From contig JABHAL010000004.1 of NCBI GenBank assembly GCA_018674305.1, forward strand, positions 64,446 through 128,445: a stretch of DNA of 64,000 bases. Reading direction: 5' to 3'. Positions 356-36,173 of the stretch are shown here, piece after piece (the stretch's first letter is position 1; every line of letters begins with the position of its first letter). Both the position numbers and the translations under genes were made by a program. Origin of the DNA: Candidatus Falkowbacteria bacterium (GTDB lineage Bacteria > Patescibacteriota > Patescibacteriia > UBA11705 > JABHMO01). The notes beneath the pieces are model-generated. The model did no database searches. It saw only the letters and a program-made list of their open reading frames with translations, and had not been told where the DNA came from.

Positions 356-686
356 AAAAAGCGCCCAAGTCCTTAACTTGAGCGCATGTGAGAAATTTCC
401 CTTAAGTGTACCCCGAGGGATACGGCGATGTGGCGACTTCTCTGATCCACCGATCAACCATCTTCCCGCCTTTGTATACGGGATGCTCGATCCTACCTGC
501 CTTTGGCAAGCGTAATCGAAAGAATTGGCCAACCAATAAACCGAGAAGAAGAAAAAGAAATCTAATCAATCTCTCCTCCACTGTTATATATTATATACAA
601 CTGAAAATTATAGCATAAAGAAAAATAGTTGTCAACCGTCACAAGTGCTAATAATGTAATTTTAGCAACAAAACGACTAAAATGTT

Positions 687-715
687 TTGACAAAAAGGAA
701 CAGCTCTTCTATACT
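687..715 (+). promoter_or_regulatory. Sigma-70-type promoter, TTGACA-N17-TATACT
   Basis: TTGACA at 687-692 and TATACT at 710-715, with an exact 17-nt spacer. It sits in a long intergenic region and is followed by an AT-rich discriminator. Confidence 0.5.
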
Positions 716-721
716 AATAAC

Positions 722-881
722 GGGTCTGTTACCGAATGCAAGTTCGTAACGAAATTTTCAAATATTATGATAGAATCTTCAAAAATTTTTGAGGTAATAT
801 GGTAATATTAGCGAGAAGATTTTTGGAGATTATAGCCAAAATTTGAAAATTGCAGTAGAAGCTGCATTCGGTAACAGACCC
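722..881 (+). ncRNA. Candidate structured RNA or small inverted-repeat element. 19-bp perfect terminal inverted repeats (722-740 and 863-881) enclose an AT-rich 122-bp core with internal palindromes
   Basis: gggtctgttaccgaatgca and tgcattcggtaacagaccc are exact reverse complements. The element begins 7 nt after a consensus -10 and is followed by the hairpin CCCCCT..AGGGGG before the rlmN ATG. Confidence 0.3.
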
Positions 882-937
882 ATAACAATAAATTTAACCT
901 ACCCCCCTGCCAAAGCAGAATAGGGGGCTTTTAGCTT

Positions 938-1930
938 ATGCTCTATCAATTACCTGAAAACCTAAATCATTTACCTAATTTCAGAAAAAAACAAATTCAT
1001 CATGCAATTTGGGGTGATTATATTTCTGAATGGTCAGACGCTACTACCCTACCCAAGGACCTTTTGAAGGAACTGGAACAAAGTTTACCTATAAACATTG
1101 CCGGTGAAAATTTTCATTCCACTGATCAACAAACTTGCAAAACAGTTATTGAACTTGAAGACGAAAAAAAGATTGAAACCGTACTGATGCAACACAAGGA
1201 CGATCGTAATACAATCTGCCTATCCACTCAAGTCGGTTGCGTAATGAACTGTTCATACTGCGCCACGGGCCAAATGGGATTTTCAAGAAATCTAACAGCG
1301 GACGAAATCATCATGCAAATTTTGTTTTGGGCAAGATACTTAAAAAAATCAAAAAGAAAAATCACCAATGTTGTTTTTATGGGGATGGGTGAACCATTCT
1401 TAAACTATGACAATGTAATGAAATCTATTTCAATAATCAACAGCCCCGACTTTTTCAATATCGGAGCACGTAGAATTTCTATTTCAACCTGCGGTATTAC
1501 TGAAGGAATTAAAAAATTAGCTAATCAGCCACTGCAGATAAACCTGGCCATCTCGTTGCATGCGCCTAACGACAAAGTTCGCAATCAAATAATGACTATT
1601 AACAAAAAGTATTCTGTTAACAAAATCATGGTAGCCGTCGATCAATATGTTACTAAGACTAACCGAAAAGTAATGTTTGAATATTTATTATTAAAAGATG
1701 TTAATGATAAACCAGAACATGCTCGAGAACTTGCCACACTTCTTGATAACCACTTATACATGGTTAACCTGGTAAAATACAATCCAAGTAATAGCGCATT
1801 CTCGCCAACTCCAATTAATAAATTCCAAAAATTTAAATCTATTTTGCAAGTGGCAGGCATTAATGTAACTGAACGTCACAGCTTTGGACAAGATATTAAT
1901 GCAGCGTGCGGTCAACTAGCTAATAAGTAA
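938..1930 (+). CDS. rlmN: 23S rRNA (adenine2503-C2)-methyltransferase, radical SAM (RlmN/Cfr family)
   Basis: Contains the CSYCATGQ radical-SAM cysteine triad plus GMGEP, RISISTCG, LAISLHA and a C-terminal ACGQL, all typical of RlmN. Confidence 0.85.
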   Translation: MLYQLPENLNHLPNFRKKQIHHAIWGDYISEWSDATTLPKDLLKELEQSLPINIAGENFHSTDQQTCKTVIELEDEKKIETVLMQHKDDRNTICLSTQVGCVMNCSYCATGQMGFSRNLTADEIIMQILFWARYLKKSKRKITNVVFMGMGEPFLNYDNVMKSISIINSPDFFNIGARRISISTCGITEGIKKLANQPLQINLAISLHAPNDKVRNQIMTINKKYSVNKIMVAVDQYVTKTNRKVMFEYLLLKDVNDKPEHARELATLLDNHLYMVNLVKYNPSNSAFSPTPINKFQKFKSILQVAGINVTERHSFGQDINAACGQLANK

Positions 1931-24807: not shown

Positions 24808-25037
24808 AATCATCACAAGAGAACATTACAACTGAATATCCACCAAAGGGTCTGTTCCCGAATGTAATTTCATGATTGAAGTTGCCTACGGCAATGGACC
24901 CTTTATACATGCGAGATCTCTAATAACAATATTTATTTTTTTAACAGTAGCTAAGTGATAGGAAACTCTTCATAAATTTATGGCATGGTCCAGAACCTGC
25001 TGGTTTTACCACAGGTGCCTTTAACTGGATTTTTTAT

Positions 25038-26529
<1,492 letters not shown>

Positions 26530-26640
26530 GAGATTTTGATAAGGTAGGTTTACTTACTTTATCCACTCCGGTCGGACTACTTAGCGTTTTTAACGCGGTA
26601 GCATATTGTTTCCTATCACCTAAATACTGTTAAACAATTA

Positions 26641-26719
26641 ATTAGACTTCATAGTCTAATTTTTTGTTTTTAAAATAAAAAAAGGGGGCACTTAAATGTT
26701 AAGTGTCCCCTGTGGTTTT
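26641..26719. terminator. Two hairpins. A terminator for 16S at 26641-26667 (attagact-tca-tagtctaat plus T-run) and a bidirectional terminator at 26676-26719
   Basis: The second is aaaaaaagggggcactt-aaatgtt-aagtgtcccctgtggtttt. Confidence 0.6.
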
Positions 26720-35900: not shown

Positions 35901-36173
35901 TAATGTCTTATAAACAATTACTCATTCTTAAATAGTGGGTAATAACTCGAACCACTTTTGTGTCATATGAGAGTGTTGGCGGATAGACGTTTAGGAATAA
36001 TTTTAAAATTTTGAGTATATTGGGCAAAAAATTTTTGAAGCATATCTGTAGATATAGTGAAAAAAGATTTTGTTCAAGATACTAGAATTTAAGAATTATA
36101 ACAAGCGCTATATTCGGTAACACTCACATATCTGTGACCTACTTGGACATCGGGTTACAGTAAGTAAAATAAT

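What the first reader, a model, noticed from the sequence alone, without database searches (positions are those of the whole stretch)
687..900. Consensus promoter feeding an element closed by 19-bp perfect inverted repeats, with a related motif in the 16S leader
TTGACA-N17-TATACT (687-715) is followed 7 nt later by gggtctgttaccgaatgca (722-740). Its exact reverse complement sits at 863-881. Between them are 122 nt of AT-rich sequence with further internal pairing: aaattttcaaat pairs with atttgaaaatt, and tcaaaaatttttga forms a hairpin. A CCCCCT/AGGGGG hairpin follows, just before the rlmN ATG. A 19/20-nt match to the same motif, gggtctgttcccgaatgtaa, lies at 24848-24867 in the 16S leader, again downstream of a TTGACA-N17-TATACTAAT promoter. 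The first candidate is a rod-like small RNA, with a 6S-like architecture in which the 5' and 3' ends pair. The second is a miniature inverted-repeat mobile element carrying an outward or inward promoter. The third is a shared leader motif, possibly a protein-binding or processing site, common to rRNA and this locus.
Basis: partly seen in the sequence, partly recalled or inferred. Interest (0 to 1): 0.55.

Follow-up and report, generated by a model that had tools for sequence, protein, structure and literature searches.

The report
Mobile hairpin repeat inserted in rlmN leader
The 160-base perfect hairpin is one copy of a small mobile DNA repeat, widespread in tiny-genome Patescibacteria, that landed between the rlmN promoter and its gene; a decayed copy sits in the 16S leader.

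Summary
Window 722-881 is a 160-nt rod hairpin with 19-bp perfect terminal arms (z = -13). It is not a dedicated sRNA gene and not an rRNA-leader motif. It is one copy of a MITE-like family of about 167 nt.

Evidence for a mobile element:
- G000 holds 4 full copies plus degenerate and short ones.
- 36 of 151 sampled genomes of the class and 16 of 151 of the phylum have it, some with 18 or more copies.
- Exact 5-bp target duplications flank GGG...CCC (here ATAAC/ATAAC).
- Same-genus genomes keep uvrB-rlmN with the same promoter and leader hairpin but no element.
- All four congeners lack the 16S-leader segment, which scores as a decayed short copy.

So the consensus promoter belongs to rlmN, and the CCCCC/GGGGG hairpin is a conserved rlmN leader structure.

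Unusual features:
- The whole hairpin covaries (56 of 57 pairs).
- Folding is strand-specific (G·U 159 versus A·C 40).
- The internal asymmetric core is more conserved than the arms.
- None of the three transposase families or the reverse-transcriptase family tested co-occurs with it.

Verdict: a new member of a known kind, of moderate interest.

The parts
687..715 (+). Host rlmN promoter (TTGACA-N17-TATACT); not part of the element
   Evidence: Read. The same TTGACA-N17-TATACT followed by the leader hairpin stands upstream of rlmN in G004, which has no element.
717..721 (.). Left copy of the 5-bp target-site duplication ATAAC
   Evidence: Scored 5/5 at the exact boundaries.
722..881 (+). Full-length copy of the ~167-nt hairpin mobile element (sense strand = +)
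   Evidence: CM R1 scores 157.5 bits on + and 74.4 on -. Fold z -13.3. Family alignments A1 and A3.
722..740 (+). Left terminal inverted-repeat arm
   Evidence: (I1).
743..754 (+). 5' subterminal conserved core TTCGTAACGAAA
   Evidence: Invariant or nearly invariant columns in A1 and A3.
850..860 (+). 3' subterminal conserved core TTGCAGTAGAA; it faces the 5' core as an asymmetric internal loop
   Evidence: Invariant in A1. Structure.
863..881 (+). Right terminal inverted-repeat arm
882..886 (.). Right copy of the 5-bp target-site duplication ATAAC
901..925 (+). Conserved rlmN leader hairpin (CCCCCC...GGGGG), followed by TTTT; host feature
   Evidence: Fold. CCCCC...GGGG(G) hairpins stand at the same place in G004 and G002 without the element.
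938..1930 (+). rlmN (dual-specificity RNA methyltransferase), the gene whose 5' leader received the insertion
   Evidence: TIGR00048 at 348.9 bits, cut-off 290. Radical_SAM.
24848..24901 (+). Decayed short-form copy of the same element in the 16S leader
   Evidence: R1 scores 23.3 bits, E 0.0044 over the window. The segment is absent from the 16S leaders of G001-G004.
35966..36130 (+). Degenerate full-length copy upstream of a DEAD-box helicase gene
   Evidence: R1 scores 48 bits, E 8.5e-9. Helicase identified by Pfam.

Best explanation
Window 722-881 is a copy of a non-autonomous, MITE-like mobile element of about 160-168 nt. The family is spread through this class and phylum (Patescibacteria, by the names of the nearest RlmN relatives).

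Anatomy:
- Terminal inverted arms of about 19-20 bp that begin GGG(T/A)C, or TAGAC in some lineages.
- Two different, conserved subterminal motifs: 5' TTCGTnACGAAA and 3' TTGCAGTAGAA.
- A covarying inner rod.

Shown: the element inserts at AT-rich 5-mers and duplicates them. In this genome one copy landed between the -10 box of the pre-existing rlmN promoter and a conserved rlmN leader hairpin. Another landed in the 16S leader and has since lost its middle.

Inferred:
- Movement is by a trans-acting enzyme making 5-bp staggered cuts.
- That enzyme recognises the arms plus the two asymmetric subterminal motifs.
- Recognition probably acts on, or is aided by, the folded sense strand.
- At this locus the element is transcribed as the extreme 5' end of the rlmN mRNA. 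There a 19-bp perfect helix would act as a 5' stabiliser, an RNase III target, or both.
For: Multicopy family:
- CM R1 finds 4 full copies in G000: C16:65164-65329, C8:1815-1980, C5:17109-17274 and C15:42349-42513, at 128-157 bits. It also finds degenerate and short copies.
- 36 of 151 class genomes and 16 of 151 phylum genomes have copies at E<=1e-4.
- The G091 arm pattern occurs 50 times against 0 for the reversed control.

Target duplication:
- At the exact GGG/CCC boundaries, 14 of 96 copies have 5/5 direct repeats and 27 of 96 have at least 4/5.
- Off-register controls give 0-2 perfect matches.
- G091 has 6 of 9 perfect and G143 has 6 of 19. The window copy is ATAAC/ATAAC.

Empty sites:
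- G004 and G002 keep uvrB-spacer-rlmN with promoter and leader hairpin but no element.
- The 16S leaders of G001-G004 all lack the 59-nt segment.

Patchiness within the genus: G001 has 0 copies, G003 has 0, G004 has 1, and G002 has 4 plus 1 short, none at the rlmN site.

Assembly breaks: contigs of G062 and G306 end inside the element.

No known RNA family: Rfam gave nothing at gathering or E-value thresholds on the window or on 13 relatives' loci.
Against: No cognate autonomous element was found:
- DDE_Tnp_Tn3: 0 of 10 copy-bearing genomes and 2 of 401 in the class.
- rve: none in G000, and none of the 8 rve loci examined carries the arms.
- DDE_Tnp_IS240: 1 of 5.
- RVT_1: 2 of 5.
- G000 has no multicopy IS-sized repeat.
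- Only these four families were tested, and MAGs often lose IS contigs.

Features atypical of a plain DNA MITE:
- The internal asymmetric core is more conserved than the arms.
- Length is almost fixed at 164-170 nt.
- The whole rod covaries.
- G·U outnumbers A·C by 159 to 40, and the sense strand folds better in 42 of 42 sequences.

Hint of RNA-level retention in G000. By eye, 6 of 9 copies lie within 110 nt downstream of a canonical TTGACA-N17-TAnnnT in sense orientation.

No insertion polymorphism. The four metagenome runs laid on the locus show only the allele with the element, and no joint across it.
Confidence: 0.85

Rival explanations
1. The element is mobile in origin but is retained here as a cis-acting 5'-UTR RNA module. 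Transcribed from host promoters, the rod would stabilise the downstream RNA, serve as an RNase III or protein-binding site, or both. On this reading the G000 lineage has domesticated copies upstream of RNA-metabolism genes.
For: - By eye, 6 of 9 G000 copies lie downstream of canonical promoters in sense orientation.
- Downstream genes include rlmN, 16S rRNA, a DEAD-box helicase and a DHH/NrnA-like protein.
- Across 94 copies, a promoter-like motif points into the sense strand in 18 cases, against 7-9 for the other three orientations.
- Folding is sense-strand specific, with wobble pairs recurring at fixed positions.
- The AGUA opposite GAA in the invariant loop recalls a loop E / sarcin-ricin motif. 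This is recalled and untested.
Against: - Across the family there is no orientation bias relative to genes: the downstream gene is on the same strand in 40 cases and on the opposite strand in 42.
- 76 of 94 copies have no such feeding promoter.
- G001 and G003 of the same genus have no copy, so no essential function exists at genus level.
- The 16S and helicase copies are decaying.
- The DHH match is below Pfam's cut-off.
- No RNA data were available.
Confidence: 0.2
2. A dedicated rod-like small RNA gene (6S-like), expressed from its own consensus promoter and ended by the downstream hairpin.
For: - It is a rod with paired 5' and 3' ends, about 160 nt long.
- No 6S gene is detectable elsewhere in G000.
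- The C8 copy lies between TTGACA-N17-TATATT and a terminator-like hairpin, with no same-strand gene evident.
Against: - The promoter and the 'terminator' pre-exist at the element-free rlmN locus of G004 and G002.
- There is no RF00013 match on the region or the genome. That search recovers 6S in only 5 of 14 control genomes, so it is insensitive.
- There is no large central bubble in the consensus.
- Up to 18-50 copies per genome with target duplications do not fit a housekeeping sRNA.
Confidence: 0.03
3. A shared leader motif that serves as a processing, antitermination or protein-binding site common to the rRNA and rlmN leaders.
For: There is an 18 of 20 match between 722-741 and 24848-24867, both downstream of TATACTAAT-type promoters.
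Against: - The 16S processing stem is 24930-24966 with 26608-26644.
- The motif segment is absent from 4 of 4 congeneric 16S leaders.
- It aligns to the element model end to end as a short copy.
- The same arm also occurs at non-leader sites.
Confidence: 0.02

Closest known systems
bcr1 and related Bacillus cereus-group interspersed repeats
   Same: Both are small (100-400 bp) non-coding repeats, multicopy (bcr1 reaches 130 copies), with mobility linked to an AT-rich 5-nt motif (TTTAT). This comes from passages of PMC6542083. From recall of the papers cited there (Okstad 2004, Kristoffersen 2011, not read): a conserved hairpin fold with compensatory changes and no identified transposase.
   Different: - Unrelated sequence and phylum.
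- Here the duplicated 5-mer is any AT-rich word (ATAAC, TTTAT, TTAAA and others), not one fixed motif.
- Arms and two distinct subterminal motifs are defined here.
[quoted passage not shown]
   Same: Both are non-autonomous, insert into AT-rich DNA, make 5- or 6-bp duplications, have a highly conserved element size, and have short conserved core stretches. This comes from passages of PMC4133298. From recall: Tn3-family tips begin with a G run, as here.
   Different: - TIMEs are 262 bp with 38-bp Tn3-type IRs, mostly one copy per genome, and live beside Tn3-family transposases.
- Here arms are about 20 bp and copies reach 18-50 per genome.
- DDE_Tnp_Tn3 is in 0 of 10 copy-bearing genomes and 2 of 401 class genomes.
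Correia (NEMIS) and ERIC whole-length hairpin MITEs
   Same: Recalled, no call. These are 100-160-bp elements that fold end to end when co-transcribed. They sit in intergenic leaders and trailers, and they alter mRNA processing (RNase III or RNase E) and stability. This is the best functional analogue for the rlmN-leader copy.
   Different: Recalled: Correia elements duplicate TA and carry promoter boxes and IHF sites. Here the duplication is 5 bp and no element-borne promoter was seen. There is no sequence relation.
6S RNA (RF00013)
   Same: Both are rod-like RNAs of about 160-190 nt with paired ends.
   Different: There is no model match, no large central bubble, and the element is multicopy with target duplications.

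Membership tests
MITE (miniature inverted-repeat transposable element) | Small, non-coding | tested here: met
   The element is 160 nt. The only ORF of at least 30 aa touching it (629-805, 58 aa) starts upstream in the promoter. Copies in other genomes differ by compensatory changes rather than codon-like changes.
MITE (miniature inverted-repeat transposable element) | Terminal inverted repeats | tested here: met
   19 of 19 perfect, and 24 nt at 92%. Helix 1 has 18 pairs, all with changes on both sides across 42 sequences.
MITE (miniature inverted-repeat transposable element) | Target-site duplication of fixed length | tested here: met
   At exact boundaries, 14 of 96 copies have 5/5 and 27 of 96 have at least 4/5. 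Off-register controls give 0-2. The window copy is ATAAC/ATAAC.
MITE (miniature inverted-repeat transposable element) | Many dispersed copies and empty sites in relatives | tested here: met
   for copies. for empty sites.
MITE (miniature inverted-repeat transposable element) | Cognate autonomous element with the same ends that encodes the transposase | tested here: inconclusive
   Three transposase Pfam families and one reverse-transcriptase family were tested, and none co-occurs. G000 has no IS-sized repeat. Other families and unbinned contigs were not searched.
TIME / Tn3-derived MITE | 5-6-bp duplication in AT-rich targets | tested here: met
   By eye, two G306 copies (L072, L073) show 6/6 repeats.
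TIME / Tn3-derived MITE | About 38-bp IRs homologous to Tn3-family IRs | not tested
   No Tn3-family IR sequence was obtained from a tool. The two class Tn3 loci fetched did not reach their IRs.
TIME / Tn3-derived MITE | Tn3-family transposase in the host | tested here: not met
   0 of 10 copy-bearing genomes and 2 of 401 in the class.
6S RNA | Match to RF00013 and a large central bubble | tested here: not met
   No match. Consensus loops are small.
rRNA leader processing stem or shared leader motif | Pairs with the 16S trailer and is conserved in congeners | tested here: not met
   The real stem is 24930-24966 with 26608-26644. The segment is absent from 4 of 4 congeners.

The most novel reading that the evidence does not exclude
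The family spreads, or is maintained, through a folded single strand. On this reading the sense-strand rod (as RNA or ssDNA), with its invariant asymmetric loop, is the substrate of an undescribed mobilising enzyme of Patescibacteria. That enzyme would be absent from the four families tested. The rod would then be a structure-dependent mobile element, not a decaying DNA MITE. Some copies, as in this genus, would be co-opted as 5' leader modules of RNA-metabolism genes.
Probability: 0.2. Interest if true: 0.75.

Novelty: new member of a known kind. Interest (0 to 1): 0.4.

Why it matters
It explains a striking sequence feature as an ordinary event: a repeat landed in a promoter-proximal leader. 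That removes a false sRNA and rRNA-motif lead.

It also defines, with a covariance model and 96 delimited copies, a phylum-wide mobile repeat in bacteria with very small genomes. There the repeat breaks assemblies, and it can be mis-annotated as a regulatory RNA.

Its fixed length, full-length covariation, strand-specific fold and lack of a known transposase make it a usable handle for finding an unknown mobilisation system in Patescibacteria. It is also a natural test of how a 160-nt 5'-terminal rod affects expression of rlmN and rRNA.

No paper describing such an element in this phylum turned up in four full-text searches.

Tried and rejected
Known RNA families. Rfam at gathering threshold on the window gave only 16S and 7 tRNAs. 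The E-value scan of 300-1000 gave 9 sub-threshold chance hits, the best being a plant miRNA model on the minus strand at 28.9 versus 90 bits. On 13 relatives' loci, 6 matches came back at E<=0.1: two tRNAs and four below their families' gathering scores, three of them plant-miRNA models that overlap copies of the element, as. RF00013 on the genome gave nothing.

CRISPR-repeat idea. The 36-nt short-form core (GTTTC...GAAAC) was considered and dropped. Copies are solitary, flanked by inverted arms and target duplications.

Hammerhead idea. A CUGAUGA in one arm was considered and dropped. It is simply part of the arm helix and varies among copies.

Sense-orientation rule. This was rejected for the family: same strand 40, opposite 42 (an earlier cruder count is).

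Partner hunt.
- PF01526, PF00665, PF13610 and PF00078 showed no consistent association.
- Unpaired arms in G091 are truncated copies.

Viral contigs. 0 of 80 match the model, so this is uninformative on phage carriage.

Sequencing runs.
- No RNA holder was listed; all 20 runs are DNA from marine or seawater metagenomes.
- Four runs with lower word shares were laid to look for an empty allele. Only the allele with the element was seen, and no joints.

Noisy count. The 16-mer pattern count over 301 genomes (101 of 301) is noisy because the reversed control also hits. It was used only to pick G306 and G062.

Supplements of papers were not opened.

Full report
**Observation.**
- The arms 722-740 and 863-881 are perfectly complementary and extend to 24 nt at 92%.
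- The 160-nt stretch folds into a nearly continuous rod: -71.4 kcal/mol, z -13.3, with 0 of 200 shuffles as stable.
- The arm word occurs 3 times in the window, against 0.02 expected.
- One correction: the 16S-leader match is 18 of 20, not 19 of 20.

**It is a family, not a single locus.**
- BLAST in the window's own genome found a second copy on contig C8, 83% identical over 109 nt.
- A DNA search in 61 relatives hit 17 genomes, several of them many times.
- Reading the hits showed a common anatomy: variable, mutually complementary arms; a conserved 5' motif TTCGTnACGAAA; a conserved 3' motif TTGCAGTAGAA; and an inner part of nearly fixed length.
- I aligned 15 copies (A1) and built a covariance model from them (R1).
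- In G000, R1 finds four full copies at 128-157 bits. It also finds a degenerate one at window 35966-36130 (48 bits), two short ones on C6, and the 16S-leader stretch 24845-24904 as a short copy (23.3 bits, E 0.0044 over the window).
- Every copy scores far higher on one strand, which defines a sense strand.
- In samples of the class and of the phylum, 36 of 151 and 16 of 151 genomes have copies at E<=1e-4.
- In G091 the arm word occurs 50 times, against 0 for the reversed control.
- Contigs of G062 and G306 end inside the element.
- By the titles of the nearest RlmN-encoding records, at no more than 56% identity, the lineage is Patescibacteria / Parcubacteria group.

**It is mobile.**
- In genomes whose copies are near-identical, the five bases before GGG equal the five bases after CCC.
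- Over 96 delimited copies, 14 have 5/5 and 27 have at least 4/5 at the exact boundaries. Off-register comparisons give 0-2 perfect matches.
- G091 has 6 of 9 perfect and G143 has 6 of 19.
- The duplicated words are AT-rich. The window copy is flanked by ATAAC on both sides (717-721 and 882-886).
- Within the genus, G001 and G003 have no copy and G004 has one. G002 has four plus a short one, none at rlmN.

**Empty sites explain the promoter and the 16S motif.**
- G004 and G002 keep uvrB-spacer-rlmN.
- In G004 the spacer ends with TTGACA-N17-TATACT, then 23 nt, then a CCCCC...GGGG hairpin, then the rlmN ATG, with no element. G002 is equivalent.
- Removing 722-881 and one ATAAC from G000 leaves 21 nt between the -10 box and the hairpin.
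- So the promoter is the rlmN promoter (RlmN by TIGR00048). The CCCCCC/GGGGG hairpin is a conserved leader structure of rlmN, not the terminator of an sRNA.
- In the 16S leader, all four congeners align on both sides but lack the 59-nt segment that holds 24848-24901.
- The real 16S processing stem is 24930-24966 with 26608-26644.
- The shared motif is therefore two independent insertions of one family, the rRNA one now decayed.
- Short forms elsewhere differ in length, which fits independent internal deletions.

**Structure.**
- On 42 sense copies from 35 genomes (A3), RNAalifold predicts an end-to-end rod of 57 pairs. 56 of these show compensatory double changes.
- 93.5% of cells pair, against 68.3% in column shuffles (0 of 500 reach it) and 36-49% when partners are slid. 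Relatedness of the sequences inflates the shuffle test; the slide control does not depend on it.
- The fold is strand-specific. G·U plus U·G number 159, against 40 for A·C plus C·A, and 39 of 42 sequences have the excess.
- The antisense alignment folds to -44 versus -64 kcal/mol. The sense MFE is lower in 42 of 42.
- The two subterminal motifs face each other as a conserved asymmetric internal loop. Rare subfamilies change both sides together.

**What does not fit a regulatory RNA.**
- Across the family, orientation relative to flanking ORFs is random: the downstream gene is on the same strand in 40 cases and on the opposite strand in 42. This used a crude stop-to-stop ORF method.
- A promoter-like motif points into the sense strand in 18 of 94 copies, against 7-9 for the other orientations. 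This is a modest excess, not a rule.
- In G000, by eye, 6 of 9 copies follow a canonical promoter in sense. Several precede RNA-metabolism genes. That is a small, post hoc sample.

**What does not fit a plain MITE.**
- No partner was found. Tn3-type transposase is in 0 of 10 copy-bearing genomes and 2 of 401 class genomes.
- rve is absent from G000 and never flanked by the arms.
- IS240-type transposase is in 1 of 5 and reverse transcriptase in 2 of 5.
- G000 has no IS-sized repeat.
- MAGs commonly lack IS contigs and only four families were tried, so this is inconclusive.

**Comparison with known elements.**
- TIMEs share AT-rich targets, 5-6-bp duplications and constant size. They differ in IR length, copy number and the presence of Tn3 transposases (passages of PMC4133298).
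- bcr1-type repeats of the Bacillus cereus group share size, copy number and an AT-rich 5-nt insertion motif (passages of PMC6542083).
- Correia and ERIC elements (recalled) are the functional analogue for a whole-length hairpin co-transcribed in a leader.
- Four literature searches found no description of such an element in this phylum.

**Mechanism at this locus (inferred).**
- Transcription from 687-715 should start within a few bases of 722.
- The rod would then be the 5' end of the rlmN mRNA, followed by the native leader hairpin.
- By established knowledge, a 5'-terminal helix protects against 5'-end-dependent decay. A perfect 19-bp helix is also long enough for RNase III.
- Which effect dominates is untested. 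No RNA run holds the locus (reported under Tried and rejected).

**Verdict.** The finding is a real, well-delimited insertion of a new MITE-like family. The promoter and the 16S motif are explained. The residual interest lies in the family's strand-specific, phylum-wide structural conservation and its unknown means of mobilisation.

Noticed in passing
window 402-635 (minus strand): A consensus TTGACA-N17-TATAAT promoter on the minus strand (635-630 and 612-607) diverges from the rlmN promoter. It precedes GGAGG and a 55-59-aa ORF (402-569/581) with a hydrophobic N-terminal stretch. The ORF ends at a bidirectional terminator-like hairpin (361-385) shared with uvrB. Pfam gave no match.
   Followed up: partly
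window 901-937; G004 and G002 rlmN leaders (L083, L082): A CCCCC...GGGG(G) hairpin just upstream of the rlmN start is conserved in three genomes of the genus. Its 3' arm may contain the only Shine-Dalgarno-like G run, so it could be a translational or attenuator structure specific to rlmN.
   Followed up: partly
G000 C8:2383-2667, C4:81053-81337, C1:119871-120150, C1:196298-196587, C3:7426-7701: A second dispersed repeat of about 270-290 nt occurs in five copies at 92-95% identity. Each is preceded by TTGTCAA. The repeat is rich in GC hairpins and has no ORF. Its conserved part ends abruptly before variable sequence. Rfam gave no match on the C8 copy. It may be a structured RNA gene family or a guide-type RNA.
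   Followed up: partly
L012 (G026) and L038 (G196); L065, L072, L073 (G306): Some copies carry nested small palindromic inserts. The same 20-nt palindrome CCTGCCTGCCGGCAGGCAGG sits at the same position in elements of two different genomes. Other GC-rich mini-hairpins appear inside G306 copies.
   Followed up: no
window 25033-26524; G000 C16:44410-47585: The 16S gene is unlinked from 23S-5S, which lie about 20 kb upstream of the window on the opposite strand.
   Followed up: no
G121:C20 and G358:C16 (L395, L396): These are the only two Tn3-family transposases found in 401 class genomes (985 and 1010 aa open frames). Each is followed by a gene that reads like a tyrosine recombinase. That label is by eye and was not run through a family search.
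   Followed up: no
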